Source: a virus
Taxonomy: Duplodnaviria > Heunggongvirae > Uroviricota > Caudoviricetes
Reading direction: 5' to 3' (one strand)
IMG/VR virus record: IMGVR_UViG_2698536687_000007
Length of the DNA stretch: 25,676 bases
A program made the position numbers and the translations under genes. Position 1 is the stretch's first letter. Every line of letters starts with the position of its first letter. Below are positions 558-20,927 of the stretch, piece by piece. A model generated the notes under the pieces. That model searched no databases. It was not told the origin of the DNA and saw nothing but the letters and a program-made list of their open reading frames with translations.

Positions 558-2782
<2,225 letters not shown>

Positions 2783-2802
<20 letters not shown>

Positions 2803-3112
2803 TCTCCCGCATATTGCCAGCATGGCTTTTAATGAGCCGCTGATGCTTGAACCCGCCTATGCGCGGGTTTTCTTTTGTGCGCTTGCAGGCCAGCTTGGGA
2901 TCAGCCGCCTGACGGATGCGGTGTCCGGCGACAGCCTGACTGCCCAGGAGGCACTCGCGACGCTGGCATTATCCGGTGATGATGACGGACCACGACAGGC
3001 CCGCAGTTATCAGGTCATGAACGGCATCGCCGTGCTGCCGGTGTCCGGCACGCTGGTCAGCCGGACGCGGGCGCTGCAGCCGTACTCGGGGATGACCGGT
3101 TACAACGGCATT
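2783..3112 (+). pseudogene. C: Head protease/scaffold gpC, N-terminal fragment (~110 aa) ending at an inversion junction
   Basis: GTG at 2783 in frame with ORF 2648..3130; translation (V)TAELRNLPHIASMAFNEPLMLEPAYARVFFCALAGQLG...PYSGMTGYNGI matches the lambda gpC N-terminus, then diverges (RRMPL-stop) at ~3113. Confidence 0.75.
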
Positions 3113-4595
3113 AGACGGATGCCCCTTTAATGGGGATCACCCGGAACAGCCCATGTTTTTTCGAGCGTTCATACACAATGGTCGGGTCAATCCCGCCAGT
3201 ATCCCAGCAGATACGGGATACCGACATTTCTGCACCATTCCGGCGGGTATAGGTTTTATTGATGGCCTCATCCACACGCAGCAGCGTCTGTTCATCGTCG
3301 TGGCGACCCATAATAATCTGCCGGTCAATCAGCCAGCTTTCCTCACCCGGCCCCCATCCCCATACGCGCATTTCGTAGCGGTCCAGCTGGGAGTCGATAC
3401 CGGCGGTCAGGTAAGCCACACGGTCAGGAACGGGCGCTGAATAATGCTCTTTCCGCTCCGCCATCACCTCAGCATCCGGACGTTCGCCGATTTTCGCTTC
3501 CCATGTCTCACCGAGCGTGGTGTTCACGAAGGTTTTACGTTTTCCCGTATCCCCTTTCGTCTTCATCCAGTCTTTGACAATCTGCACCCAGGTGGTGAAC
3601 GGGCTGTACGCCGTCCAGATGTGAAAGGTCACACTGTCCGGCGGCTCAATCTCTTCACCGGATGACGAAAACCAGAGAATGCCATCACGGGTCCAGATCC
3701 CGGTCTTTTCGCAGATATAACGGGCATCAGTAAAGTCCAGCTCCTGCTGGCGGATGACGCAGGCATTATGCTCGCAGAGATAAAACACGCTGGAGGGGTC
3801 ATCCGGCGTCCATTTGAGGCCAAACGGCGTCTCTTTGTCGCCAAATTTAAGATACTGCTCCTCCCCGCAGTGCGGGCAGGCAACATGAAAACGCATAAAA
3901 TGCAGGGATTCACTGGCTGCACGCTCAATCTGGCAGGTGCCTCTCACTTTGGGCGTGGAGCCACGGATGGACTTTGGCCAGACCGAGCCTTCAATACGTT
4001 TGTCGCCAAGGAACGTCGGAGAGCCTTCCTGTTCAATATCCTCATCAAAGGCAGCAAGTTCATCATAACCCGCCACATCCACCGACTTTTCACGGTAGTT
4101 TTTTGCCGCTTTACCGCCCAGGCACCAGAAGCCACGACCATTGGAAAAACGCTTCATAGTGAGCGTGTTATCCCGGTGCTTTTTGCCATACCACGGAGCC
4201 AGCGCCAGCAGCGACGGAATATCGCGGATGGTCGGCTCAACGTGGGTTTTCATAAAGTTCTCGGCATCACCATCCGTCGGCAACCAGATAAGGGTGTTGC
4301 GCTGCTTATGCTCTATAAAGTAGGCATAAACACCCAGCAGCATTTTGGAATAACCGACACGGGCAGACTTCACCACATTCACCTCACGGATGTAGTCGCT
4401 GCCCATCGCATTCATGATGGCCCGCTGAAAGGGCAGTGTTTCCCAGCGCCCTTCCTGGTATGCGGATTCTTTCGGGAGATAGTAATTAGCATCCGCCCAT
4501 TCAACGGCGGTCTGTGGCTCCGGCCTGAACAGTGAGCGAAGCCCGGCGCGGACAAAATGCCGCAGCCTGTTAACCTGACTGTTCGATATATTCAC
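3111..4595 (-). pseudogene. A: Terminase large subunit, N-terminal fragment (lambda gpA, about residues 1-494)
   Basis: Minus ORF, MNISNSQVNRLRHFVRAGLRSLFRPEPQTAVEWADANYYLPKE...RVIPIKGASV then stop; continuation of gpA ([11 protein letters not shown]...) is found inverted at 558. Confidence 0.9.
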
Positions 4596-5115
4596 TCAGC
4601 AACCCCGGTATCAGTTCATCCAGCGCGGCTGCTTTGTTCATGGCTTTGATGATATCCCGTTTCAGGAAATCAACATGTCGGTTTTCCAGTTCCGGAAAAC
4701 GCCGCTGCACCGACAGGGGGATCCCGTCGAGAATACTGGCAATTTCACCTGCGATCCGCGACAGCACGAAAGTACAGAATGCGGTTTCCACCACTTCAGC
4801 GGAGTCTCTGGCATTTTTCAGCTCCTGTGCGTCGGCCTGCGCACGCGTAAGTCGATGGCGTTCGTACTCAATAGTCCCTGGCTGGAGATCTGTCTCGCTG
4901 GCCTGCCGCAGTTCTTCAACTTCCCGGCGCAGCTTTTCGTTCTCAATTTCAGCATCCCTTTCGGCATACCATCTTATAACGGCGGCAGAGTCATAAAGCA
5001 CCTCATTACCCTTGCCACCGCCTCGCAGAACGGGCATTCCCTGTTCCTGCCAGTTCTGAATGGTACGGATACTCGCACCGAAAATGTCAGCCAGCTGCTT
5101 TTTGTTGACTTCCAT
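4570..5115 (-). CDS. nu1: Terminase small subunit Nu1 (181 aa)
   Basis: Minus ORF, MEVNKKQLADIFGASIRTIQNWQEQGMPVLRGGGKGNEVLYDSAAV..., lambda Nu1-like; 3' end overlaps the A fragment start as in lambda. Confidence 0.9.
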   Translation of the reverse strand: MEVNKKQLADIFGASIRTIQNWQEQGMPVLRGGGKGNEVLYDSAAVIRWYAERDAEIENEKLRREVEELRQASETDLQPGTIEYERHRLTRAQADAQELKNARDSAEVVETAFCTFVLSRIAGEIASILDGIPLSVQRRFPELENRHVDFLKRDIIKAMNKAAALDELIPGLLSEYIEQSG

Positions 5116-5330
5116 TGTTCATTCCACGGCCAAAAACAGAGAAAGGAAACGACAGAGGCCCAAAAGCTCGTTTTCAGCACCTGTCGTTTCCTTTCTTTTC
5201 AGGGGGTATTTTAAATAAAAACATTAAGTTACGACGAAGAAGAACGGAAATGCCTTAAACCGGAAAATTTTCATAAATAGCGAAAACCCGCGAGGTCGCC
5301 GCCCCGTAACCTGTCGGATCGCCGGAAAGG
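5116..5330. other. Lambda-type cos site: cosB (R-site repeats), cosN 12-bp cohesive-end sequence at 5293..5304, cosQ side to the right
   Basis: Reverse complement of 5281-5310 reads ...GACAGGTTACG|GGGCGGCGACCT|CGCGGGTTTTCG, i.e. the lambda cohesive-end 12-mer with lambda-like flanks (from memory). Repeated GAAAGGAAACGACAG elements at ~5141-5155 and inverted at ~5181-5196 resemble Nu1-binding R sites. Confidence 0.7.
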
Positions 5331-5503
5331 ACCCGCAAAATGATAATAATTATCATCTGCATGTCACAACGTGCATCTACGCCATCAAACCACGTCAAAT
5401 AATCAATTATGACGCAGGTATCATATTAATTGATCTGCATCAACTTAACGTAAAAACAACTTCAGACAATACAAATCAGCGACACTGAATACGGGGCAAC
5501 CTC

Positions 5504-5737
5504 ATGTCAACGAAGAACAGAACCCGCAGAACAACAACCCGCAACATCCGCTTTCCTAACCAAATGATTGAACAAATTAACATCGCTCTTGAGCAAAAAG
5601 GGTCCGGGAATTTCTCAGCCTGGGTCATTGAAGCCTGCCGCCGGAGACTGTGCTCAGAAAAAAGAGTTTCTTCTGAAGCAAACAAAGAAAAGAGTGACAT
5701 TACTGAATTGCTCAGAAAACAGGTCAGACCAGATTGA
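5504..5737 (+). CDS. ynfO: Small prophage protein, YnfO-like (77 aa)
   Basis: ORF 5504..5737, MSTKNRTRRTTTRNIRFPNQMIEQINIALEQKGSGNFSAW...; position after cos and before ydfO matches Qin gene order as recalled. Confidence 0.6.
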   Translation: MSTKNRTRRTTTRNIRFPNQMIEQINIALEQKGSGNFSAWVIEACRRRLCSEKRVSSEANKEKSDITELLRKQVRPD

Positions 5738-5794
5738 AGCAATTTAGATAATCGTGCAGACTACGCCCCCTCATATCACATGGAAGGTTTATCT

Positions 5795-6205
5795 ATGGAT
5801 CAGGTAGTCATTTTTAAACAAATATTTGATAAAGTTCGAAACGATTTAAACTATCAATGGTTTTATTCTGAGCTAAAACGTCACAATGTCTCACATTACA
5901 TTTACTATTTAGCCACAGAGAATGTTCATATTGTATTAAAAAATGATAATACAGTGTTATTAAAGGGCCTAAAAAACATTGTGTCTGTCAAATTTTCAAA
6001 GGATAGGCATCTTATAGAAACGACCTCTAATAAGCTGAAATCCAGAGAGATCACATTTCAGGAATACAGAAGAAACCTTGCTAAAGCAGGAGTTTTTCGG
6101 TGGGTTACAAATATCCACGAACAAAAAAGATATTACTATACCTTTGATAATTCATTACTATTTACTGAAAGCATCCAGAAAACTACACAGATCTTACCAC
6201 GCTAA
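5795..6205 (+). CDS. ydfO: DUF1398-family prophage protein, YdfO-like
   Basis: ORF 5780..6205; the second ATG at 5795 is preceded by GGAAGG (5782-5787), so the start is probably [24 protein letters not shown]... Confidence 0.7.
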
Positions 6206-6356
6206 ACCATAACGTCCGGCTTCTCTCACTCCTGAGCCGGACTGCATTGGTTTAATAAAAACCATCAACAATTGTGATTTAGATATTCGGAACCATTCAA
6301 ATATAACAAAACCCCGTAAAAACGAGGTTTATGGATAAATTTTATTATTGAATACA

Positions 6357-6530
6357 TCAGATTAAATTAATCTTGACATCATAGCTTTCAAGACCCGTCA
6401 TTTTTTCCCGTGCGGTAAACTGAATACTGGTAACTTCTTTCCCGGTCTTTTTCTTAAGTTCAATAATTTTTTTTGTTATATATTCAGAAATATCTGCTTC
6501 TGCTTTTGTTTTTAAGTTTTCAATATTCAT
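6357..6530 (-). CDS. gnsB: GnsB-like small protein (57 aa)
   Basis: Not in the ORF track (under 60 aa). Reverse-complement reading gives MNIENLKTKAEADISEYITKKIIELKKKTGKEVTSIQFTAREKMTGLESYDVKINLI-stop. Confidence 0.65.
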   Translation of the reverse strand: MNIENLKTKAEADISEYITKKIIELKKKTGKEVTSIQFTAREKMTGLESYDVKINLI

Positions 6531-6701
6531 CATTTCCTCTTTTAGTCTGTTATGACTTTCCAGTTACACAGTAAGTCGATTATATGGTGCAAACGTGTAA
6601 AAGATAAGATGAAACATCGCAATAATCAACATACGATAGTCTAAATTTTACACAAACAGACAAAGAGAATTTTCCTGAATTATCAATGCAATAGCATCAA
6701 A

Positions 6702-6932
6702 TCAACTCAAGAGCCTTATTGCTGCTTCCAGAATTTCTTCTGAAGTAACATGTCGATCCGCGGCTACATAAATGACTTTATGATCTCCGGTCAGAGATGG
6801 AAACCCTGCGGCCATTACAGTAAGGTGTGTTTTTTCGCCATTTGGATATTCACGCATGATGGTGTTAACTCCAGTCATCGCTGGCACTACCACTGCTGGT
6901 TCAGAGTTAAAAAAAACTATGATTTTTTTCAT
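6702..6932 (-). CDS. ynfN: Small prophage protein, YnfN-like (76 aa from internal start)
   Basis: Minus ORF 6702..6974; likely start MKKIIVFFNSEPAVVVPAMTGVNTIMREYPNGEK... at 6932. Confidence 0.55.
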   Translation of the reverse strand: MKKIIVFFNSEPAVVVPAMTGVNTIMREYPNGEKTHLTVMAAGFPSLTGDHKVIYVAADRHVTSEEILEAAIRLLS

Positions 6933-7203
6933 GATGTTACCGTAGTATGTGAGTATCCATCGAATAGACACCAAGCAAAAAAGCTCCCGAAGGAGCCTTC
7001 ATTTTCACTTTTTTAAATCCAACGACAGACGGCTGGCATTTAAGTATTGTGAAATATTATCAAATGTAATCATCATTGATTTACAAAAGATACATTTTGC
7101 CCCGAAAGGATTCATGTCAGAAACATCAAAAGATGATGTTCTATACTGGGAACCATGACAACACGGGCATCTAAAGTGAATATGGTTTGTAATATTGTCT
7201 ACC

Positions 7204-7416
7204 TCAAAGCGCCACTACATGAACAGCGGCAGGACCTTTAGGTCCGTTCTCAATACCAAATTCAACTTCCTGATTCTCAGTTAATGTTTTGAAATCGTTG
7301 CTCTGAATTGCTGAGAAATGGACAAACACATCTTTGCTGCCATCTTTCGGCGTGATGAAACCAAAACCTTTTTCAGGGTTAAACCATTTCACTAAACCAG
7401 TCATTTTGTTAGACAT
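7204..7416 (-). CDS. cspI: Cold shock protein, CspA family (CspI-like, 70 aa)
   Basis: [70 protein letters not shown]; RNP motifs KGFGFI and VFVHF. Confidence 0.9.
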
Positions 7417-7778
7417 AATTATTACCTTTTGAAGAAATTAGCCCTTGGGCAGAATGGTCCGAAAAAAAATATCAGAGAGAAAAACCAACAAGGAAATCTC
7501 AAGAGGTACAAATAATAAAATTATAACAATGACTGCTTCAGATAAATTTGTAACAAACCAGAACACCATTAACGCATGATTAACCACCCATAGCAAGGAT
7601 TACTTTTGTAAAGAAAAACACAGCAATGAAAGAATAGCTTTATTTATTAATAAAACGTGTCATTCTGATTAAGACCTTTTATCTTACCCTTAAGATTTCA
7701 GGAATTTTGGCTCATGGAAGAGTCCTTTTTATTTAAATTTTACATTCCGCGATGTAAATGTTCCGATTTAATATTACC

Positions 7779-8802
<1,024 letters not shown>

Positions 8803-8806
<4 letters not shown>

Positions 8807-9114
8807 AGATATTTATGATGAGGACGCTCGTGCTTATTGGCAGGATTTTCAATCTTAAAGGAGTACTGATGCTGCAGATAAGACTCAACTTTTTCTGACA
8901 ATTTTTCTGCTACTTCCAGGAAGACTTGCCGGACGCTCCTTCTGGCTGCTGCCTCATAAAACTCCAGCGCAGCTCCTTCAACACGGTCCATGGCGACATC
9001 CAGGTCAAAAATTTCACCGTCAAAGCGTTCTTTGTCCTGTAAGGCTACAGTTACCGTAACTTTATTCTCAAAATTACGGACTCCTTTCACAACCAGTTCA
9101 TAGTCTTGAGTCAT
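8803..9114 (-). CDS. ydfR: Prophage protein of unknown function, YdfR-like (103 aa)
   Basis: Minus ORF between holin and endolysin with ATGA overlap at 8803-8806; MTQDYELVVKGVRNFENKVTVTVALQDKERFDGE... Confidence 0.55.
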
Positions 9115-9118
9115 TGGA

Positions 9119-9334
9119 TTACTCTCCTCTCGCAGCCTTACGCCTGTCTTCTTTAATCTTGAAATAAAGATTTGTCAGATACGTCAGCAGGCCAAAAACC
9201 AGGCTACCCAGCACACCGATTGCAGCCCACTGTGACGGAGTTACTTTATCGAGTAACTGCAATGCCCAGAAACCAGCATTACCCGCCGATGTGCCATAGG
9301 CAACACCTGTTGTTAACTTATCCATTGATTTCAT
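9119..9334 (-). CDS. essQ: Class II holin (phage 21 S-type pinholin-like), dual-start motif
   Basis: Minus ORF 9119..9409; probable start [71 protein letters not shown] (71 aa) with the Met-Lys-Ser-Met dual-start arrangement and two TM segments. Confidence 0.75.
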
Positions 9335-9553
9335 ATCCTCACCCCGATGTACACGGATGGTGCAATATGTTTGAAAAGATCGGAGTCTACGGGGTAGTTT
9401 TGACAGCACACGTTGTTCTCAACGGCGCTAAAAAAACATACACATTAAAAATGTGGGTAATTATTTTGAAAGAAAGTCATATATAAAATAATAATACGAG
9501 AAATGTTTTCATATTTAGTGTACTGTATACGGCCATTTATACAGGAAAAGCCT

Positions 9554-9724
9554 ATGTCAGAACGTAAAAACTCAAAATCACGCCGTAATTATCTCGTTAA
9601 ATGTTCCTGCCCAAACTGCACCCAAGAGTCAGAACACAGTTTTTCAAGAGTACAAAAAGGTGCCCTTTTGATCTGCCCTCATTGCAACAAAGTATTCCAG
9701 ACAAATCTTAAAGCTGTAGCCTGA
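9554..9724 (+). CDS. ynfU: Small zinc-ribbon protein (56 aa), YnfU-like
   Basis: ORF 9503..9724; ATG at 9554 preceded by AGGAAAAG; MSERKNSKSRRNYLVKCSCPNCTQESEHSFSRVQKGALLICPHCNKVFQTNLKAVA has CxxC...CxxC. Name is from memory of small-protein annotations and is not certain. Confidence 0.45.
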   Translation: MSERKNSKSRRNYLVKCSCPNCTQESEHSFSRVQKGALLICPHCNKVFQTNLKAVA

Positions 9725-9780
9725 TTGATTTTATTAGTAACAAGTATTTTTTATATTTTAATAATATATTTAAAGCAGAT

Positions 9781-9806
9781 AATAAAAAACCCGCCTGAGC
9801 GGGTTT
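9781..9806 (-). terminator. Rho-independent terminator-like hairpin (AACCCGC-CTGA-GCGGGTT) with T-run on the minus strand
   Basis: Stem 9788-9794 / 9799-9805; on the minus strand it is followed by TTTTTTATT (complement of 9781-9789). Confidence 0.45.
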
Positions 9807-10087
9807 GAGATTGTGGTGCTTTTTGTGGGAGTCATCCACTTACGCACTTTGTTTTGCCATGCCAGCAGTTAGCTTCTGCTGTAAAACTATTCATGCAGCA
9901 AACCTGCACTTCACCACAATGGTTAGCATACTTTTCCTGATTAAGATTTTGCCAAATATGCTAGCCATTGTTTCATGTATTGGACCTCCTTACTTTTTAT
10001 TAAAGAGATCCAATATTCACTACTCTGTCCGTATCTCTACTCAGGCATCAGCCTTCTTCGTTATCGTATACAGACGAGCGATGAATT

Positions 10088-10303
10088 TTAATCAGTAATG
10101 ATGACATTTGCTGCTGCAGGACCTTTAGCACCACTCTCTATAGAGAAGGTAACCTTTTGACCTTCAAATAAGGTTCGATAATTATCATTCTGAATCGCAG
10201 AAAAATGCACAAACACATCTTTACTACCATCAACAGGAGAAATAAAGCCGAAACCTTTATCAGCGTTAAACCATTTTACTAAACCAGTCATTTTATTTGA
10301 CAT
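10088..10303 (-). CDS. cspB: Cold shock protein CspB-like (71 aa)
   Basis: [71 protein letters not shown]. Confidence 0.9.
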
Positions 10304-10603
10304 TCTACATTCCTTAACTTGAGCCTTTCGGCATAAATGGTTTGCATAACAGAAACGACTTCGTACTTAATTGGAGAGACTCAAAGAAGGAATAAGTGAA
10401 TAACACCTGAAATGAGAACTGCTTTAGTAAACTACTTCGTATATCGTCTGTTCTTCAAACCGACGCAATCATTAACGCATAGTTGAACATATGAAGCAAT
10501 GTTTATTTTAGACATCCAGCCATCTTCAACCCCATCAAAAAACTATAGCTTTCTTCAGGAACGTGTGTATAGTGCGCCAAGTTATCAGTATTAAGGAATT
10601 TTT

Positions 10604-10816
10604 TTGTCCCGTAAAATGACAGGAATTGTCAAAACCTTTGACGGCAAAAGCGGCAAGGGTCTTATCACCCCATCCGATGGTCGTATCGATGTCCAGCTTC
10701 ATGTTTCAGCGCTCAATCTCCGCGATGCAGAAGAAATTACCACCGGATTACGCGTGGAATTTTGCCGGATAAATGGTCTGCGTGGCCCTTCAGCTGCCAA
10801 TGTTTACCTTTCATGA
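10604..10816 (+). CDS. cspF: Cold shock protein family, CspF-like (70 aa), divergent from cspB
   Basis: [70 protein letters not shown]. Confidence 0.85.
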
Positions 10817-11107
10817 GCTATATTAAAGCTTTAATTTCAGGCCCCATCGGATCACACATGGAGAGTTTTTATGAATAACCCCGTCTGTCTTGATGACTGG
10901 TTGATTGGCTTTAAAAGCTTATGCTGTACTTTGGCCGTAATAGCTCTGCTAATAATATAATAAGCAGACTCATTGTGTTTAGGGACATTGTACTGGAAGA
11001 AAACATTTTAAACATCAGGCAAATAACCAAGTCACCAGCTAAATAATAAGTTAACAGACATGAGTCCCGGGATGAGATTCAACATTACCATTGCCCCATT
11101 TAAAGCA

Positions 11108-11140
11108 CAAAACCCGCTCATCAGCGGGTTTTCTACTTTT
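11108..11140. terminator. Terminator-like hairpin (AACCCGCT-CATC-AGCGGGTT) ~110 nt 3' of Q on the minus strand; candidate late-operon tR' or bidirectional terminator
   Basis: 8-bp stem 11111-11118 / 11123-11130 with T-rich flank on the plus strand and A-rich flank upstream. Confidence 0.4.
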
Positions 11141-11237
11141 TCTTAACGTCGGGTATACAAAGCCCATCGTTGAAAAAATTTTATCCATATTTTTTGAAAA
11201 ATGCAAACATCATGTCGCCATCTTCAGCAAAAATCAT

Positions 11238-11954
11238 TTATCTCGTCACCTTCCTCAATTGCGCTTCCGCGTATGCTTCTTCCTGCCAGCACTTTGTTAC
11301 CAGTTTACCAATGACGTCCGCATACCCCTTATACCACTGATAATCGGTCAGGTCTGGTACCAGCTTCTGGACATGACGTCGTGCCAGCGTGGTCGGTAAA
11401 CGACTAAACCGGTTTCCATTACAACGCCCACAAATCTTATATACCGGTACGCCATGAAACCGGGTTCTTTTTTCATCCAGAACAATCCCTTTACCCTTAC
11501 ACCCTCTGCACGCTGTGCTGGCTTCGCCCTTACCATGGCAATGCTGACATAGTTCCTTCACCCATTCTTCCTTGATTACAGATTCCCCGCGTCTGTAGTG
11601 TTTCACCACTTCGCGCAATACATTATAAAATCCCGTACCTGAACAATGCTCACAGCGAGCCTTACTTGCCGCAGACCTGGAGTAATCAGCAAAGGCAAAA
11701 CTCACGAGGTAAGGAATAATCTGTAACCGGATTTCTTCACTCAATTTGTTCAATGTCGGGTTATCCAGTGCCATCGCGTAATTTAGCAGGCCTTCAATCG
11801 CAAACTGAGGGTCCTGAACACCAACTTTTGCCAGAAATAAGGCCAACCCAAGTGGTGCTTTCGACTTCACCATCCCCTGCGCTGCCATTTCAACGCACAC
11901 AGCATAGAGGCCATCTTCACAAAAAATTTTACGCAGTTCTTCGATGTTCATCAT
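11238..11954 (-). CDS. quuQ: Late-gene antiterminator Q (238 aa)
   Basis: Minus ORF with cysteine-rich zinc-binding motifs (CEHCSGTG, CQHCHGKG, CRGCKGKG, CGRCNG) typical of lambdoid Q proteins; located upstream of the lysis cassette. Confidence 0.8.
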   Translation of the reverse strand: MMNIEELRKIFCEDGLYAVCVEMAAQGMVKSKAPLGLALFLAKVGVQDPQFAIEGLLNYAMALDNPTLNKLSEEIRLQIIPYLVSFAFADYSRSAASKARCEHCSGTGFYNVLREVVKHYRRGESVIKEEWVKELCQHCHGKGEASTACRGCKGKGIVLDEKRTRFHGVPVYKICGRCNGNRFSRLPTTLARRHVQKLVPDLTDYQWYKGYADVIGKLVTKCWQEEAYAEAQLRKVTR

Positions 11955-14179: not shown

Positions 14180-15620
14180 ATCTACCCTATGAATGGATAT
14201 GCACTCAACCGAATCGATCTTGGTTTCAATCTTTTTTATCGGGATCAGGCTTCTTTTTAGGTAACTTCGGGGGCTTAACTTGCTGATGACTTTGCGTTCG
14301 GCGCGTAAGCCAGGGATGGTCAGCTTTAGGTTTAACATAGTATTTTGAGCGTAAATCAATACGGGCATTATCCACTCGTTCATGGACACTCTTTTCATCA
14401 TCCAGTGGTATAGGCTCCGGGCCATCAACATACTTTTCCCAGCCCAGCGCTTTCCCGTCATACAGAACGTTAATTTCACCGTCAAAGTTCTCGCATACAG
14501 TAACAACCGAATGCCTAAGTCGATATCCCCGGCCCTCACTGCGTACCTGAAACGCACTGCTTTTGTACTGGAAAGTGAGATTTTTAGACAGAACGCGCTT
14601 CGCCTGTAGGCTGAAGATATAACCCAGTTCCTCTTCAGAATGGTGCACATCAAGATGAGCATTATCAGTAGTACGAGGCGACGTAGCGAACCGGTTGTTA
14701 TAGGCTTCAATAAAGGTCGGCAACCATGCATTTGCTGTTTCAATATCACTGATATTCTGAAGCCGCATTTCTTTGACCAGCCTGTCCTGTAGTGTCTGAT
14801 TGGCGCGCTCTACCCGCCCTTTTGCCTGCGGGCTGTTGGCATGGATTGGCTCGATGCCCAGTGTCTTTATCGCACGAGTGAACTGGGTCAGCTCACCTTC
14901 CCGCTCTGGGTTATTTACCCTGAATATACTGTGTCTATCAGAGTAGAGAGCGAGCGGTACGCCATGATCATTAAGGTAACCCCGGAGGGTTTCCATGTAA
15001 GCCCGGGTTGTTTCAGCAGGCACAAAACGCAACGCCATCAACGCACTGGTGGCATCATCAATGAAAACGATCAGTGTACATCTGGGGCCTCGATTTTCAA
15101 ACCAGTCATGAGGTGAGCCATCAATCTGGATCAGTTCACCGTAAGATGGTCGTCGCATGCGGCGTTGATATATACGGGCAATTTTACGACGGCGTTCACG
15201 CCATAACCCCTCTTCTATCATCCACTTTCTGAGAGTTTCAACGGATAAAGATAAACCGTGTATCTCGCGCAATTTTTCGCACGCAAACGTAGGTCCAAAA
15301 TCAGCGTAACGGCCTTTGAGGAGTGAAATTACTGTTGCTCTGAATTCAGTAGAAAAGGAATTATTAGGACGCTTTCCACGTCGGTGGGAAACCAGACCAG
15401 AAGGCCCTTCATTTCTATACCGTTGCACCAGACGTTTAACCTGCCGAATAGAAATGCCAATGCGTGCCGCAGCTTGTTCCTGAATAATCTGAAGTCGGTG
15501 GAGTTCCTTATGACTCATCGTAACAGTCTCTTTGATCATGAAAAATCCCCCAGAGAATTGTCTGGGGACATTTTAGAATGGTTCAAAGGGGACATTACAG
15601 CTTGGTGTTAACAATAGCCT
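14180..15620 (-). mobile_element. Insertion sequence carrying a single DDE transposase; ends not resolved
   Basis: One 437-aa transposase ORF (14226..15539) with no neighbouring phage homologs; I could not identify clean terminal inverted repeats by eye, so the boundaries are approximate. Confidence 0.4.
14226..15539 (-). CDS. DDE-type transposase (HTH plus integrase-core rve-like domain; ISNCY/IS481-like), 437 aa
   Basis: N-terminal HTH-like region (IGISIRQVKRLVQRY) and a central region with spaced acidic residues (LIQIDGSPHDWF..., ALYSDRHSIF..., AKGRVERANQTLQ) typical of DDE/rve transposases; lysine-rich C-terminus. Confidence 0.7.
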   Translation of the reverse strand: MIKETVTMSHKELHRLQIIQEQAAARIGISIRQVKRLVQRYRNEGPSGLVSHRRGKRPNNSFSTEFRATVISLLKGRYADFGPTFACEKLREIHGLSLSVETLRKWMIEEGLWRERRRKIARIYQRRMRRPSYGELIQIDGSPHDWFENRGPRCTLIVFIDDATSALMALRFVPAETTRAYMETLRGYLNDHGVPLALYSDRHSIFRVNNPEREGELTQFTRAIKTLGIEPIHANSPQAKGRVERANQTLQDRLVKEMRLQNISDIETANAWLPTFIEAYNNRFATSPRTTDNAHLDVHHSEEELGYIFSLQAKRVLSKNLTFQYKSSAFQVRSEGRGYRLRHSVVTVCENFDGEINVLYDGKALGWEKYVDGPEPIPLDDEKSVHERVDNARIDLRSKYYVKPKADHPWLTRRTQSHQQVKPPKLPKKKPDPDKKD

Positions 15621-15873
15621 GCTTCTCCGTGCCTTTCGGCACGTAAGAGGCTAACCTACATGTGTCTAGCATGAAATTGGCCTCAGATTAATGTTAAGCG
15701 TCTTGCAGGACGCGTAATGTTAACTGGGGCTTTTCTCTATCTGCCGTTGGTGTCCATGCCCGAGGCAGATAGCCTCAAGCACCCGCAGTCATTCTACTTA
15801 ACTAAGATTTCCCCGCAAACCGTTTTTGTCCAGCACAGTAAATATCCAACTAAACCAATGGAGTTCGCTGTAT

Positions 15874-17562: not shown

Positions 17563-17981
17563 TGCGCCACGTCCTGAAAATTACCCTGATAGAAAGCCAG
17601 TATGCGCTGCATAACTTCGCTCTTCCGGCACTCGCGACAGATTATGTTTAGGCGACTGTCGTAGCGACGTATTTCTCCGTCAGGTGATGACCAGATAAGG
17701 TCCGGATCAACCACAGCAGGTTTCTTCACCTTTGCCCTCGAGAGTTTTTTGCGGGCGTTTTGCCAGTCCTTACGCGCCTGTTCAGAGGGGAATAACCCGT
17801 AGCCGGAGTTGTATACATCGCCACTGGCTACCAGCTCTCTGGCAAGAACGCTCATCAGATATCTAGTCGCACCTGTTTTAGCTTCCAGTTGCCGTAACGT
17901 CTCACGGCCGCTCTGGCGCACGAGTTCCACCACCTGCCATTTAATTTTTTCCCGCTCTTCTTGTGTAAAAACTTTTGCCAC
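17559..17981 (-). CDS. Hypothetical prophage protein (140 aa), translationally coupled to the methyltransferase-like ORF
   Basis: Minus ORF; ATGA overlap with downstream ORF at 17559-17562; basic, with a CRECRK motif; no family assignment. Confidence 0.4.
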   Translation of the reverse strand: MAKVFTQEEREKIKWQVVELVRQSGRETLRQLEAKTGATRYLMSVLARELVASGDVYNSGYGLFPSEQARKDWQNARKKLSRAKVKKPAVVDPDLIWSSPDGEIRRYDSRLNIICRECRKSEVMQRILAFYQGNFQDVAQ

Positions 17982-18021: not shown

Positions 18022-19041
18022 TTATCCTCTGAAACCAGGCGGAATTTCTGTATCCGGTTCAGAAATATGATTAACACAACGCTGTACAGGTGAACGTCCC
18101 AGGCGGATGACCAGTTCGTCCCATTTTTCGCGGAGCTTTGACGGGCTCATGATGTTTTTTACCCAGAATGGATCTCGCTGAACCCGACCAAACATTTCGC
18201 AAATTTGTCTGTGGCTTCTGCCATCCAGCATCCGCATTGTGCGCACGTCATTGGCCCAGGCAGTCCAGTTAGGCTCTTTTGGTCGCATGATCTCGCCATC
18301 ATCACTGGCTGCCTGTTCGTAGAGACCCACGATCCGCCCCCAGATCCACTGCGCACACGCCAAATCCTCCCTGCTACCCCACTGGCGTTTTTTCGCACTA
18401 AACACAACCGCGTCGGAGTTCCGGGTTAAAAAATCCTGTTCAGTCGTCTGCGGGTCCGGTTGCGAAGCTTCCGGACGAAAAGTGTTTTTATTCTCTGTAG
18501 TAATCTCTGTTGTATTCTCTGTAAGATCATCAGGCCATTTTGACCCGATGACATTGGGTCGTTTTGAACCAATGGAGCGTTTCATTTTGACCTCTTCCAT
18601 CGTGTCATTTTGACCTGATGGAGCGGCGCATTTTGAACCGATGGATTCGCTCAATTTGCCACCATCTAAAAGCTCGCTCCCATAGTTGATCGTGTAGAAA
18701 TTGGTCATATCGCGCTTTGATTTATTGAGCTTTTCACAACGCAAAAGCCCCAGCGTTTTCAGACTTGCAAACGCGCGCTTTAACGTTGACTCTGACCAGA
18801 ATGGGAACTGTTCCAGCCATTGTTCCGTTGTGTTATAAATCCAGCGAACACCATCACATTCCATGCCGGAGTTGGTATCTCTCAACCAGTAGTGCAGTTG
18901 TTGCAAAACAATGGCTTCGTTTAAGCCAATTTTCATTGCCAGCTGCGTGTTTATAACCAGTGGGCGTTCAGCAAAAAGAAGGCTCATAATTCCATCCAGC
19001 TTTTTGTTGGTATTGCTGTCGATACGCAAGTTTGAAAGCAA
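18022..19041 (-). CDS. Phage replication initiator / replisome organizer (lambda O-like role), 339 aa
   Basis: Position downstream of the cro-like dicC; contains the internal iteron array at 18536-18672, encoding repeated SIGSK peptide motifs; start may be the internal Met at 18987. Confidence 0.65.
   Translation of the reverse strand: MLSNLRIDSNTNKKLDGIMSLLFAERPLVINTQLAMKIGLNEAIVLQQLHYWLRDTNSGMECDGVRWIYNTTEQWLEQFPFWSESTLKRAFASLKTLGLLRCEKLNKSKRDMTNFYTINYGSELLDGGKLSESIGSKCAAPSGQNDTMEEVKMKRSIGSKRPNVIGSKWPDDLTENTTEITTENKNTFRPEASQPDPQTTEQDFLTRNSDAVVFSAKKRQWGSREDLACAQWIWGRIVGLYEQAASDDGEIMRPKEPNWTAWANDVRTMRMLDGRSHRQICEMFGRVQRDPFWVKNIMSPSKLREKWDELVIRLGRSPVQRCVNHISEPDTEIPPGFRG
18536..18672. repeat. 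Iteron array (5-6 direct repeats, ~23-bp period, consensus ~CATTTTGA(A/C)C(N)GATGGAG), candidate replication origin inside the initiator gene
   Basis: Repeat starts at ~18536, 18560, 18583, 18606, 18629, 18652; flanked at 18491-18523 by three copies of (T/A)TCTCTGT(A/T) at 12-bp spacing. Confidence 0.6.
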
Positions 19042-19150: not shown

Positions 19151-19338
19151 GCACGTGATGCTTTTTCCGTCAGTAATTTCACGATACAACCTGAAATCAT
19201 TAATCCGGATAGACGCATCGCGCGACCTTCGGGAACTAAATCCCCTTTCCAGCTATAAAGCGAAGCCAAACGAATACCTGCTGCTTGTGCAAGTTTTGTT
19301 TTTGAACCGAAATACAAAAGAGCGTCAGTTTTAAGCAT
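19147..19338 (-). CDS. dicC: Cro-like small HTH regulator, DicC/YdaS-like
   Basis: MLKTDALLYFGSKTKLAQAAGIRLASLYSWKGDLVPEGRAMRL...; divergent from dicA across an operator-containing intergenic region. Confidence 0.7.
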   Translation of the reverse strand: MLKTDALLYFGSKTKLAQAAGIRLASLYSWKGDLVPEGRAMRLSGLMISGCIVKLLTEKASRA

Positions 19339-19353
19339 TTAAAACACCTTTAT

Positions 19354-19420
19354 TGTTAGTCATAACTAACAAGATAGATGTTAACAAAAACATAGTCAAT
19401 ACGATTTAGCATTAGCTAAC
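19354..19420. promoter_or_regulatory. Divergent dicC/dicA promoter-operator region with palindromic operator-like sites
   Basis: Perfect 18-bp palindrome TGTTAGTCATAACTAACA at 19354-19371 and a related TTAGCATTAGCTAA element at 19406-19419. Confidence 0.55.
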
Positions 19421-19421
19421 T

Positions 19422-19829
19422 ATGGAAACAAAAAATTTAACTATCGGCGAACGCATCAGGTATCGTCGGAAAAACCTCAAACACACCCAAAGGTCTCTTG
19501 CTAAAGCCCTGAAAATCTCCCATGTGTCTGTATCACAATGGGAACGGGGTGATAGTGAACCTACAGGGAAGAACCTTTTTGCCCTCAGCAAAGTATTGCA
19601 ATGCTCACCAACATGGATTCTATTTGGCGATGAAGACAAGCAACCAACACCACCTGTTGAGAAGCCAGTTGCCTTATCCCCCAAAGAACTAGAGCTCCTT
19701 GAGCTGTTTAATGCACTGCCAGAATCAGAACAGGATACCCAGCTCGCCGAAATGCGAGCTCGAGTAAAAAACTTCAATAAACTCTTTGAAGAATTACTAA
19801 AAGCCCGTCAGCGGACAAATAAAAGATAA
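19422..19829 (+). CDS. dicA: HTH (XRE-family) repressor DicA (135 aa)
   Basis: METKNLTIGERIRYRRKNLKHTQRSLAKALKISHVSVSQWERGDSEPTGKNLFALSKVLQCSPTWILFGDEDK...; recognised as DicA from memory. Confidence 0.9.
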   Translation: METKNLTIGERIRYRRKNLKHTQRSLAKALKISHVSVSQWERGDSEPTGKNLFALSKVLQCSPTWILFGDEDKQPTPPVEKPVALSPKELELLELFNALPESEQDTQLAEMRARVKNFNKLFEELLKARQRTNKR

Positions 19830-20869: not shown

Positions 20870-20927
20870 TTTCTGGTGACGTTTGGCGGTATCAGTTTTA
20901 CTCCGTGACTGCTCTGCCGCCCTTTTT
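20870..20927 (+). ncRNA. dicF: DicF small regulatory RNA (ftsZ-targeting sRNA) with its intrinsic terminator
   Basis: TTTCTGGTGACGTTTGGCGGTATCAGTTTTACTCCGTGACTGCTCTGCCGCCCTTTTT matches the DicF sequence as I recall it; GC stem plus T-run at the 3' end; sits between ydfC and dicB. Confidence 0.8.

What the first reader, a model, noticed from the sequence alone, without database searches (positions are those of the whole stretch)
18487..18672. Iteron array inside the replication initiator gene: candidate prophage origin
Five to six direct repeats with a regular ~23-bp period (CATTTTGACCCGATG..., TTTTGAACCAATGGAG..., CATTTTGACCTGATGGAG..., CATTTTGAACCGATGGA...) lie within the initiator ORF, next to three copies of TCTCTGT at 12-bp spacing. 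This mirrors lambda, where ori iterons lie within gene O. At the protein level the repeats encode a repeated SIGSK linker. An origin that is still functional in a structurally defective prophage would allow in situ replication on induction.
Basis: partly seen in the sequence, partly recalled or inferred. Interest (0 to 1): 0.55.

Follow-up and report, generated by a model that had tools for sequence, protein, structure and literature searches.

The report
Phage replication origin inside initiator gene
The repeats are real and are very probably the replication origin of a Qin-type E. coli prophage, built like the origins of phage lambda and of staphylococcal RepA_N plasmids; the finding is sound, but its kind is well known.

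Summary
There are six 23-bp units (five strong, one degenerate) at 18531-18669, followed by three 12-bp units at 18487-18522. This is the strongest periodic signal in the window.

The units fall in all three codon phases. Their third-codon positions are far more conserved than those of the flanking coding sequence. The constraint therefore acts on the DNA, not on a 'SIGSK' protein repeat.

The host ORF (18022-18987, minus strand; 'hypothetical protein' in RefSeq) has three parts:
- an N-terminal winged-helix domain whose best fold matches are RepA_N plasmid initiators;
- a disordered linker encoded by exactly these repeats;
- a C-terminal domain 34% identical to lambda O.

In 84 homologous loci from Proteobacteria to Firmicutes, 55 have at least four repeats at 21-25 bp immediately after the N-domain. 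Control segments give 0-1. The repeat cores differ by lineage, but the 12-mer (T/A)ACAGAGAnTAC is conserved.

The proven pSK41 origin has the same layout: four 23-bp Rep boxes (GTCAAAAGGACAC) followed by short AT-rich repeats.

Verdict: this is the phage origin, a new member of a known kind. Firing was not tested. The prophage is damaged, no helicase loader is encoded, and DicA lacks an SOS-cleavable domain.

The parts
18022..18987 (-). Initiator gene (321 aa). It is 100% identical to the protein annotated 'DNA replication protein O' in Escherichia phage PhiR42_1 and lies where WP_000054512.1 'hypothetical protein' is annotated in ATCC 8739, whose DNA matches the window at 100% across this region.
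   Evidence: ORF list. PHROG 391 'replication initiation O-like', E 1e-91. No Pfam family. RefSeq and phage-record annotation.
18673..18987 (-). Coding sequence of the N-terminal winged-helix DNA-binding domain (about aa 1-105), with a RepA_N/DnaD-like fold.
18531..18669 (-). Iteron array of six contiguous 23-bp units. The 10-nt cores lie at 18661-18652 (degenerate), 18638-18629, 18615-18606, 18592-18583, 18569-18560 and 18545-18536. The family consensus is aTcCATcAGGTCAAAATGacccG, semi-palindromic around an A-tract.
   Evidence: The units occupy three codon phases. Third-codon identity in the cores is 0.82 against 0.565 in the N-domain coding sequence.
18487..18522 (-). Three 12-bp repeats, ACAGAGAATACA / ACAGAGATTACT / ACAGAGAATAAA, in one of the lowest-GC stretches of the gene (30%). 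This is the candidate DNA-unwinding / helicase-entry element.
   Evidence: The family consensus is (T/A)ACAGAGAnTAC, from 146 units in 47 distinct arrays. In 14 of the 47 arrays the copies lie in more than one reading frame. Third-codon identity is 0.96.
18100..18450 (-). Coding sequence of the helical C-terminal domain (about aa 180-296), homologous to the lambda O C-terminal domain.
   Evidence: BLASTP against lambda O: 34% identity, E 1e-26. tblastn hits to many lambda/Stx phage O genes over aa 170-294. Full-length AF2 model, low confidence.
18025..18087 (-). C-terminal tail ...VNHISEPDTEIPPGFRG, which resembles the extreme C-terminus of the host primosomal protein DnaT.
   Evidence: NCBIfam DnaT model, last 20 positions. 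PDB DnaT chains 2ru8, 6aep and 9zbt. Similar tails occur on homologues with other C-domains. These are weak short matches (E about 0.01), and the function is inferred only.
19371..19399 (-). Promoter-like site upstream of dicC (TTGACT-17-TATCTT), the likely early promoter that transcribes through the initiator gene and the origin.
   Evidence: Consensus scan, and its position relative to dicA/dicC. Function is inferred.
19422..19829 (+). dicA repressor gene (135 aa, HTH only), expected to keep the initiator operon off.
   Evidence: RefSeq annotation. Pfam HTH_3 and no peptidase S24 domain.
19210..19211 (.). Junction of a 365-bp deletion relative to ATCC 8739 and other RefSeq genomes. It removes the 3' end of dicC and most of ydaT, directly upstream of the initiator.
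   Evidence: Pairwise alignment. All listed RefSeq matches are split into two pieces.

Best explanation
The segment 18487-18669 is the replication origin of a Qin-type lambdoid prophage. It is embedded in the part of the initiator gene that encodes a disordered linker.

Inferred mechanism:
1. Dimers of the initiator's N-terminal winged-helix domain bind the six semi-palindromic 23-bp iterons. The core is GGTCAAAATGAC, with an A-tract at its centre, spaced about two helical turns apart. Binding bends the DNA and builds an oligomeric complex.
2. This complex, helped by transcription from the dicC promoter through the gene, melts the adjacent AT-rich block of three 12-mers (ACAGAGAnTAC).
3. The lambda-O-type C-terminal domain, possibly with the DnaT-like tail, brings in the host DnaB helicase. 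No P- or DnaC-like loader is encoded next to the gene.

Shown here: the anatomy, the DNA-level constraint, the co-inheritance of the repeats with the N-domain, and the fold and domain relationships. Inferred: binding, melting, helicase recruitment, and whether this copy still fires.
For: 1. The repeat array is real and is the strongest periodicity in the window.

2. The constraint is on the DNA.
- The units lie in three codon phases.
- Among nine collinear enterobacterial genes, third-codon identity is 0.82 in the iteron cores and 0.96 in the 12-mers, against 0.565 in the N-domain coding sequence (permutation p < 1e-4).
- In the 12-mers a third-position T is kept in 134 of 146 units while the neighbouring second-position base varies. 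In 14 of 47 arrays the copies lie in different reading frames.

3. The repeats belong to the N-domain.
- 55 of 84 homologous loci have at least four repeats at 21-25 bp spacing directly after the N-domain, and 50 of 84 have at least three AGAGA 12-mers.
- Four control segments of the same loci give 0-1 of 84. The loci include Enterobacterales, Pseudomonas, Campylobacterales, Desulfuromonas, Bacillus, Staphylococcus and Limosilactobacillus.
- The cores change by lineage (GGTCAAAATG, GGACAAATTGTCC, GGGCAATTTGC, GTGCAAATTCGC, and others), but the period and position do not.
- A Shigella phage with the same C-domain but a different N-domain carries different repeats (period 15/30) at the junction.

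4. The protein is an initiator.
- PHROG 391, E 1e-91.
- The C-domain is homologous to lambda O.
- The N-domain fold is closest to RepA_N initiators.
- The linker (aa 102-175) is predicted disordered and coincides with the repeats.

5. Two characterised origins, read here with the same tools, have the same layout.
- Lambda O has four dyad iterons at 20-24 bp spacing followed by an A-rich stretch.
- pSK41 repA has Rep boxes GAAATGTCAAAAGGACACGTCTA x3.8 at period 23, followed by short AT-rich repeats.
- For pSK41 the boxes are the Rep-NTD binding sites inside rep, and the linker they encode is dispensable (PMC5703833).
- RepA_N iterons are described as semi-palindromes converging on a poly-A tract (PMC7145576).

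6. The module sits in whole phage genomes that have no other replication gene: PhiR42_1, Klebsiella and Hafnia phages, and a 43.7-kb circular phage genome assembled as a separate replicon.
Against: - There is no experimental evidence for binding, melting or replication of this sequence. I found no paper that contains these repeat sequences in this context.
- About a third of the homologous loci, mostly Neobacillus/Bacillus, did not show the pattern with my simple detector.
- The N-domain has no detectable sequence similarity to Pfam RepA_N or to the pSK41 NTD. That link rests on a predicted structure and on the form of the sites.
- No helicase loader is encoded, and replication of O-only lambdoid phages is stated to be 'not yet understood' (PMC12315714).
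- In this particular window the upstream dicC-ydaT region carries a 365-bp deletion, which could affect expression of the initiator.
- The full-length AF2 model is of low confidence (pLDDT 54).
Confidence: 0.85

Rival explanations
1. The origin sequence is retained but does not fire in this damaged prophage. Its present effect, if any, would be as a decoy or incompatibility element: the iterons, and any initiator made, would interfere with replication of incoming or co-resident phages that use the same iterons. This is comparable to lambda ori-mediated inhibition or to lactococcal 'phage-encoded resistance'.
For: - The prophage is structurally damaged. An inversion splits the terminase gene, and there are 1.69-kb and 365-bp deletions.
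- DicA is intact and lacks a cleavage domain, so the operon is probably silent.
- The same 201-bp origin segment is present in 1890 of 5426 complete E. coli genomes, with up to 4 copies per genome, so cross-talk between elements is possible.
- Plasmid-borne lambda ori iterons are reported to inhibit rep-lambda phages (PMC3349717, abstract seen).
Against: - The initiator ORF and the origin are 100% identical to those of apparently complete relatives, so nothing in the origin itself is defective.
- A single chromosomal copy is a weak titrator.
- This reading concerns present-day use and does not contradict the element being an origin.
Confidence: 0.15
2. The repeats are a protein-level repeat, a flexible (S/V)IGSK and TExT linker motif selected for protein function, and the DNA periodicity is a by-product.
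For: Three units translate to (S/V)IGSK, and the three 12-mers translate in frame to TENT/TEIT/TENK.
Against: - The period of 23 is not a multiple of 3, and the six units are read in three phases as unrelated peptides.
- Third-codon positions are more conserved than in the folded N-domain.
- In 14 of 47 arrays the 12-mers shift frame yet keep ACAGAGA. For example, Bacillus phage HD29phi reads the middle copy as T-Q-R-L.
- The linker is predicted disordered.
- The equivalent pSK41 linker is dispensable at protein level (PMC5703833).
Confidence: 0.03
3. The array is a chance or neutral slippage duplication with no function.
For: Tandem duplications arise easily. One unit (18652-18661) is degenerate.
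Against: - Shuffles never approach the observed periodicity.
- The same position, period and order are found in 55 of 84 homologues from different phyla, against 0-1 of 84 in controls.
- There is strong conservation at synonymous sites.
Confidence: 0.01
4. The repeats are binding sites for a different protein, such as the DicA/DicC operators, a terminase pac site, or a site for the neighbouring DUF977/Ren-like protein, rather than for the initiator.
For: Repeated sites inside genes can serve packaging or regulation. No binding data exist.
Against: - The motif occurs nowhere else in the window, including the dicA-dicC intergenic region.
- The repeats follow the N-domain into Staphylococcus, Bacillus and Pseudomonas phages that lack DicA/DicC/DUF977 neighbours.
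- They are replaced when the N-domain is replaced.
- Their form matches proven RepA_N Rep boxes.
Confidence: 0.02

Closest known systems
Phage lambda ori-lambda within gene O (O/P replication module)
   Same: - The origin lies inside the initiator gene, in the segment between the DNA-binding and C-terminal domains.
- It has 4-6 dyad-symmetric iterons with an A-tract at roughly two-turn spacing (lambda: 20, 24, 23 bp; here: 23, 23, 23, 23, 24), followed in the direction of the gene by an A/purine-rich stretch.
- The C-terminal domain is homologous (34% identity, E 1e-26).
- The genomic position is the same: downstream of the cro/cII-position genes and upstream of a Ren-like gene.
   Different: - The N-terminal domain is unrelated: no Pfam Phage_rep_O, and hhalign probability 0.1%.
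- The iteron sequence is different.
- The low-GC block is organised as three conserved 12-mers.
- There is no P gene or any other loader/helicase gene.
- A DnaT-like C-terminal tail is present.
RepA_N plasmid replicons (pSK41 and pTZ2162 RepA of Staphylococcus aureus)
   Same: - The origin is embedded centrally in the rep gene and encodes a linker (PMC5703833).
- The iterons are semi-palindromes converging on an A-tract (PMC7145576).
- pSK41 Rep boxes have the same 23-bp period and a near-identical core (GTCAAAAGGACAC against GTCAAAATGACAC). They are followed by short AT-rich direct repeats in the same orientation.
   Different: - No sequence-level membership: there is no PF06970 hit and no hhalign signal.
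- The C-domain is lambda-O-type, not the DnaD-like, DnaG-binding CTD of pSK41.
- The element is a lambdoid prophage of a Gram-negative host, not a Gram-positive plasmid.
- The second repeat is ACAGAGAnTAC x3 rather than TGATACTGATTTTAT.
O-only ('solo initiator') lambdoid phages such as LLS (Genome Res 2025, PMC12315714)
   Same: The replication module consists of a single O-homologue with no helicase or loader. Here the same is seen in the window, ATCC 8739, PhiR42_1, Klebsiella phage vB_VIPKPNMC05, Hafnia phage yong2 and the AH02 circular phage.
   Different: That paper reports the gene content (34 of 314 phages) and says replication of this type is not yet understood. I did not test whether LLS carries this N-domain or these repeats.
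PLE RepA of Vibrio cholerae (a RepA_N-type initiator in a Gram-negative satellite)
   Same: It is a RepA_N-like NTD in a mobile element of a gamma-proteobacterium that binds semi-palindromic iterons with a poly-A centre. A V. cholerae NTD structure (4ro3) is among the fold hits.
   Different: According to the paper, the PLE origin lies in a non-coding region, not inside repA, and PLE needs a helper phage. I did not confirm that 4ro3 is PLE RepA.
Iteron plasmids with Rep_3 initiators (F, R6K, RK2, pPS10) and their DUE 13-mers
   Same: The general logic is the same: direct repeats bound by a winged-helix Rep, next to an AT-rich unwinding element made of short repeats. One strand of that element can be bound by Rep (PMC4081077, abstract seen).
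   Different: There is no Rep_3 Pfam match. The origin is inside the gene rather than beside it. No DnaA box lies in or next to the array.

Membership tests
Lambda-type O initiator / ori-lambda | N-terminal origin-binding domain of the Phage_rep_O family (PF04492) | tested here: not met
   Lambda O scores 123 bits on PF04492. The window protein has no Pfam hit. hhalign of the N-domain alignment against the lambda O N-terminus gives probability 0.1%.
Lambda-type O initiator / ori-lambda | C-terminal domain homologous to the lambda O C-domain (the P-interacting half) | tested here: met
   BLASTP aa 147-294 against O aa 135-270: 34% identity, E 1e-26. tblastn hits to lambda, Stx and other O genes.
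Lambda-type O initiator / ori-lambda | Four or more dyad-symmetric iterons inside the gene, followed by an AT-rich region | tested here: met
   Six units at 23-24 bp spacing, three of them with 73% dyad symmetry. The next 40 bp are 30% GC. The lambda layout was read directly for comparison.
Lambda-type O initiator / ori-lambda | Partner helicase-loader gene (P, or DnaC/DnaB-like) immediately downstream | tested here: not met
   The downstream genes are DUF977/Ren-like and a methyltransferase. The same holds in PhiR42_1.
Lambda-type O initiator / ori-lambda | Initiator binds the iterons and the segment supports replication | not testable with these tools
   Needs EMSA or footprinting and a replication assay.
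RepA_N replicons (pSK41 type) | Match to Pfam RepA_N (PF06970) | tested here: not met
   PF06970 was not among the hits for any of six N-domains at E up to 10. hhalign against the pSK41 NTD gives probability 0.1%.
RepA_N replicons (pSK41 type) | N-terminal winged-helix fold of the RepA_N/DnaD-NTD type | tested here: met
   [not shown]
RepA_N replicons (pSK41 type) | Origin located centrally within the rep gene, encoding a linker between the NTD and CTD | tested here: met
   The repeats occupy gene nt 319-501 (aa 107-167). That segment has pLDDT below 35 in the full-length model. The pSK41 layout is described in PMC5703833.
RepA_N replicons (pSK41 type) | [quoted passage not shown] | tested here: met
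   The consensus is aTcCATcAGGTCAAAATGacccG. Relatives show full dyads such as GGTCAAATTGACC and GGACAAATTGTCC. pSK41 boxes have period 23 and core TGTCAAAAGGACA. The criterion is taken from PMC7145576.
RepA_N replicons (pSK41 type) | DnaD-like C-terminal domain that binds host DnaG primase | not tested
   The C-domain here is homologous to lambda O. No comparison with the pSK41 CTD was made, and binding cannot be tested here.
Rep_3 iteron plasmids | Rep_3 (PF01051) initiator with iterons beside the gene and DnaA boxes | tested here: not met
   No Pfam hit. The iterons are inside the gene. The only DnaA-box consensus near the gene is at 17962-17970, at chance frequency.

The most novel reading that the evidence does not exclude
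The module (RepA_N-like N-domain, 23-bp iterons and three ACAGAGAnTAC 12-mers) is a phylum-spanning origin cassette that recombines with different C-terminal recruitment domains. Under this reading:
- the 12-mers are not just an easily melted stretch. They are a specific element, kept from Firmicutes to Proteobacteria, that is read after melting as single-stranded DNA by the initiator or marks the helicase entry site;
- in enterobacterial 'O-only' phages the host helicase is recruited without any phage loader, through the lambda-O-type C-domain plus a tail that mimics the C-terminus of DnaT.

This would give a concrete, testable model for how loader-less lambdoid phages replicate.
Probability: 0.3. 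Interest if true: 0.6.

Novelty: new member of a known kind. Interest (0 to 1): 0.4.

Why it matters
This origin type is common but essentially unannotated. The 201-bp segment is present in 1890 of 5426 complete E. coli genomes, and the listed rows label it mostly 'hypothetical protein'. The initiator has no Pfam family.

Recognising it has three uses:
- It gives a precise origin coordinate for Qin-type and related prophages. That is useful for interpreting read-depth peaks, escape replication and prophage-driven amplification.
- It links a large group of Gram-negative prophage initiators, by fold and by site architecture, to RepA_N plasmid initiators, which one paper describes as rare among Gram-negative bacteria (PMC7145576).
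- It supplies a defined cis element for studying O-only lambdoid phages, whose replication was recently called not yet understood (PMC12315714).

The kind of element itself, an origin made of iterons inside the initiator gene, is textbook.

Tried and rejected
- Pfam and NCBIfam scans of the initiator gave no family, apart from a 20-residue DnaT-tail match.
- Sequence searches of the PDB with the protein and with two N-domain profiles gave nothing usable.
- The first AF2 run, on the full-length protein with 11 close sequences, was too poor for a fold search (pLDDT 54). A second run on the N-domain with 41 diverse sequences worked.
- The viral-contig scan returned 80 near-identical E. coli loci and added no diversity. 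The genome-contig scan supplied the diversity instead.
- Profile-profile comparison of the N-domain with the lambda O N-terminus and with the pSK41 NTD found no sequence similarity.
- Literature searches for the repeat sequences, for a description of a Qin-type origin, and for the source paper of PhiR42_1 found nothing relevant. I therefore cannot say whether PhiR42_1 forms plaques.
- Papers on DnaT did not say what its extreme C-terminal tail does.
- I guessed that ORFs 2376-2651 and 2648-3130 were IS1 insA/insB. They have no Pfam match and lie on the strand opposite the portal gene or its flank, so I dropped that idea.
- I considered and rejected a protein-level repeat, chance or slippage, and operator or pac-site readings (see the rival explanations).
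Full report
**Context.** The window is a Qin-type (dicA/dicC) lambdoid prophage of E. coli. It is nearly collinear with the prophage of ATCC 8739. In window orientation the gene order is: terminase/portal, lysis genes, csp genes, relBE, hokD/sok, ISNCY remnant, methyltransferase, DUF977, the ORF of interest, (ydaT), dicC, dicA, ydfABC, DicF, dicB, exonuclease, xis, int. The ORF of interest is 18022-18987 on the minus strand (321 aa). It lies where ATCC 8739, whose DNA matches the window at 100% here, annotates WP_000054512.1 'hypothetical protein', and it is 100% identical to the protein annotated 'DNA replication protein O' in Escherichia phage PhiR42_1.

**Observation.** Tandem Repeats Finder reports a period-23 array and a period-12 array at the stated place, and the repeat finder gives the individual units.
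- On the coding strand there are five strong cores, G(G/T)TCAAAA(T/C)G, spaced 23, 23, 23 and 24 bp. One further degenerate copy lies 23 bp upstream.
- These are followed by ACAGAGAATACA, ACAGAGATTACT and ACAGAGAATAAA.
- The core motif occurs nowhere else in the 25.7-kb window.
- An unbiased scan of exact 6-mer self-matches for every lag from 10 to 40 puts its maximum at this locus: 12 at lag 23, against a shuffle maximum of 5.

**DNA element or protein repeat?** The evidence points to the DNA.
- Because 23 is not a multiple of 3, the six units are read in codon phases 2,1,0,2,1,1. They encode DGGKLS, IGSKCA, SGQNDT, EEVKMK, IGSKRP and IGSKWP. 'SIGSK' is therefore a by-product of three units sharing a phase.
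- Among nine collinear enterobacterial genes (73-100% N-domain identity), third-codon positions are 0.565 identical in the N-domain coding sequence. They are 0.82 identical in the iteron cores and 0.96 in the 12-mers (permutation p < 1e-4).
- The 12-mers are in frame here (TENT/TEIT/TENK). However, over 146 units from 47 distinct arrays the consensus is (T/A)ACAGAGAnTAC. The third-position T is kept in 134 of 146 units while the adjacent second-position base varies freely. In 14 of 47 arrays the copies lie in more than one reading frame.

**The protein.**
- Pfam and NCBIfam have no family for it. PHROGs matches it end to end to phrog_391 'replication initiation O-like' (E 1e-91).
- Residues 147-294 align with lambda O residues 135-270 (34% identity, E 1e-26). 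The N-terminal 105 residues are unrelated to the lambda O origin-binding domain.
- That N-domain recurs in phages of Klebsiella, Hafnia, Pseudomonas, Staphylococcus and Bacillus (46-75% identity in alignment A1), joined to different C-domains.
- An AlphaFold2 model of the N-domain built from 41 diverse sequences is confident (pLDDT 88.7) and has a winged-helix fold.
- The low-confidence full-length model still shows the domain plan: N-domain at aa 11-101, an unstructured stretch at aa 102-175, and a helical C-domain at aa 180-296. The unstructured stretch is the one encoded by the repeats (gene nt 319-501).

**Comparative test.** A scan of one genome per species gave 80 loci encoding N-domain homologues (47-100% identity) from Enterobacterales, Pseudomonas, Campylobacterales, Desulfuromonas, Thiothrix, Bacillaceae, Staphylococcus, Limosilactobacillus and others.
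- With five phage loci added, 84 of the 85 loci were long enough to score. Of these, 55 have at least four repeats at 21-25 bp spacing in the 230 bp directly after the N-domain. 50 of 84 have at least three xAGAGA units at 11-13 bp spacing.
- The same detector finds 0-1 of 84 in the N-domain coding sequence and in segments 700 bp upstream, 700 bp downstream and 1100 bp downstream.
- The iteron cores differ by lineage, and in many lineages they are clear dyads: GGTCAAATTGACC, GGACAAATTGTCC, GGGCAATTTGC(C/A)C, GTGCAAATTCGC, CCCAAGTTGGG. The period, the position and the following 12-mers stay the same.
- A Shigella phage whose initiator shares the window's C-domain but has a different N-domain carries different repeats (period 15/30) at the domain junction and no ACAGAGA units.
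- The repeats are therefore inherited with the N-domain, as expected of its binding sites.

**Comparison with proven origins, read with the same tools.**
- In lambda O the four iterons (TCCCTCAAAACGAGGGA type) start 20, 24 and 23 bp apart. They are followed in the direction of the gene by an A/purine-rich stretch. The BLASTP alignment with the window protein begins over the last iteron.
- In pSK41 repA, TRF finds GAAATGTCAAAAGGACACGTCTA x3.8 at period 23, followed by TGATACTGATTTTAT repeats.
- These Rep boxes are the binding sites of the Rep NTD and lie centrally in rep. The linker they encode can be deleted from the protein (PMC5703833). RepA_N iterons are described as semi-palindromes converging on a poly-A tract (PMC7145576).
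- The window's units have the same period and a core that differs from pSK41's by one base in thirteen (GTCAAAATGACAC against GTCAAAAGGACAC).

**Mechanism (inferred).**
1. N-domain dimers occupy the 23-bp units.
2. The resulting bent, oligomeric complex destabilises the adjacent 30%-GC block of three 12-mers.
3. Transcription from the dicC promoter-like site at 19371-19399 runs through the origin, as pR transcription does in lambda.
4. The C-domain recruits the host helicase.

How the helicase is recruited is open.
- No P-, DnaC- or DnaB-like gene follows the initiator here, in ATCC 8739, in PhiR42_1, in the Klebsiella and Hafnia phages, or in a 43.7-kb circular phage genome assembled as a separate replicon.
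- Such O-only modules were recently counted (34 of 314 lambdoid phages) and their replication was called not yet understood (PMC12315714).
- The protein ends in ...SEPDTEIPPGFRG, which resembles the last residues of the host DnaT. Related tails (..VPAGFRS..IPAGFRG) close homologues that have other C-domains.
- I found no statement of what that tail does in DnaT, so any role in recruitment is speculation.

**Does this copy still work?** The origin and the initiator are intact and identical to those of many genomes, but the prophage is damaged.
- Relative to ATCC 8739 there is a 365-bp deletion that removes the end of dicC and most of ydaT, just upstream of the initiator.
- There is a 1.69-kb deletion near 11.9 kb.
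- An inversion splits the large terminase gene.
- DicA is intact and is an HTH-only protein without a peptidase S24 domain. SOS-induced autocleavage is therefore not expected, and the read-depth test should use DicA depletion instead.
- In situ replication is possible but untested. I put it at roughly 0.5-0.6.

**Rivals.**
- A protein-level repeat, chance or slippage, and sites for another protein are each contradicted by the frame, conservation and co-inheritance data.
- A decoy or incompatibility role in a silent prophage remains possible. It is compatible with the element being an origin. The same 201-bp segment occurs in 35% of complete E. coli genomes, with up to four copies per genome.

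**Classification.**
- It works like both lambda ori/O and RepA_N replicons.
- It fails sequence-level membership of Phage_rep_O and of Pfam RepA_N.
- It meets the architectural criteria of both, and the fold criterion of RepA_N.
- I file it as a new member of the known kind 'iteron origin embedded in the initiator gene'. It combines a RepA_N-like binding module with a lambda-O-type C-domain.
- The conserved ACAGAGAnTAC triplet and the loader-less arrangement are the parts that could prove new.

Noticed in passing
window 18025-18087 (- strand): The initiator ends in VNHISEPDTEIPPGFRG, which matches the extreme C-terminus of E. coli DnaT (PDB 2ru8, 6aep, 9zbt; NCBIfam DnaT positions 160-179). 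Homologues with unrelated C-domains end in ..DYSVPAGFRS, ..DYSQIPAGFRG or ..SSVPAGFRNG. This may be a host-protein tail mimic in initiators that lack a loader. The matches are short and weak (E about 0.01).
   Followed up: partly
L007 1992-2765 (Bacillus phage vB_BthS-HD29phi): The homologous initiator of this Bacillus phage ends in ...EEQDDLPF, which resembles the acidic C-terminal tip of bacterial SSB as I recall it (DDDIPF). This would be another possible hub-protein tail mimic.
   Followed up: no
window 19210/19211: There is a clean 365-bp deletion relative to ATCC 8739 and the other listed RefSeq genomes. It removes the 3' third of dicC and the 5' two-thirds of ydaT, and the flanks share the trinucleotide TAG. 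No listed complete genome carries it as a single piece.
   Followed up: partly
window 558-3111 versus 3112-4595: An apparent inversion of about 2.55 kb. Window 558-2324 and 3112-11892 both start at the same ATCC 8739 coordinate (L170 about 25035) but run in opposite directions. The large terminase gene is cut to 494 aa (3111-4595, minus strand), and the portal gene (1201-2802) is on the plus strand. The prophage is therefore defective for packaging.
   Followed up: partly
window about 11885-11892: A 1.69-kb deletion relative to ATCC 8739 (L170 14568-16255), covering rem, a hypothetical gene and the 5' part of ydfU.
   Followed up: no
L008 1839-2780 (Shigella phage VIT_AJPSC): This initiator has the same C-domain as the window protein but a different N-domain (MSTKLTGYVWDG...). 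It has its own repeats, CCGTCAAAATCTGAC, at period 15/30 at the domain junction. This is a clear example of the N-domain and origin being exchanged as one cassette.
   Followed up: partly
E. coli complete genomes; L171: The 201-bp origin segment is found in 1890 of 5426 complete E. coli genomes, with up to 4 copies per genome, and the listed rows mostly label it 'hypothetical protein'. A 43.7-kb 'plasmid' of strain AH02 (NZ_CP081704.1) is a circular lambdoid phage genome with an integrase, and its only replication gene is a homologue of this initiator.
   Followed up: partly
protein database hits P0001, P0002, P0004: 448-aa proteins carry a YdaT domain (PF06254) and then a sequence 99-100% identical to the initiator. 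One of them was seen on 56 contigs. They look like ydaT-initiator read-through or fusion calls. The two genes overlap by 20 nt in ATCC 8739.
   Followed up: no
window 20871-20922 (+), 15613-15784 (-), 7177-7562 (-), 10072-10464 (-): Rfam gathering-threshold hits: DicF sRNA, the sok antitoxin RNA of hokD, and two cspA-type thermoregulator leaders. All are expected for a Qin-type prophage.
   Followed up: no
L130, L132, L135, L136, L139, L145, L146, L150, L153, L157, L159, L162, L167, L168 (mostly Neobacillus/Bacillus): These N-domain homologues showed neither the 21-25-bp repeats nor the AGAGA 12-mers after the N-domain with my detector. Their origin may lie elsewhere or have a different form.
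   Followed up: no
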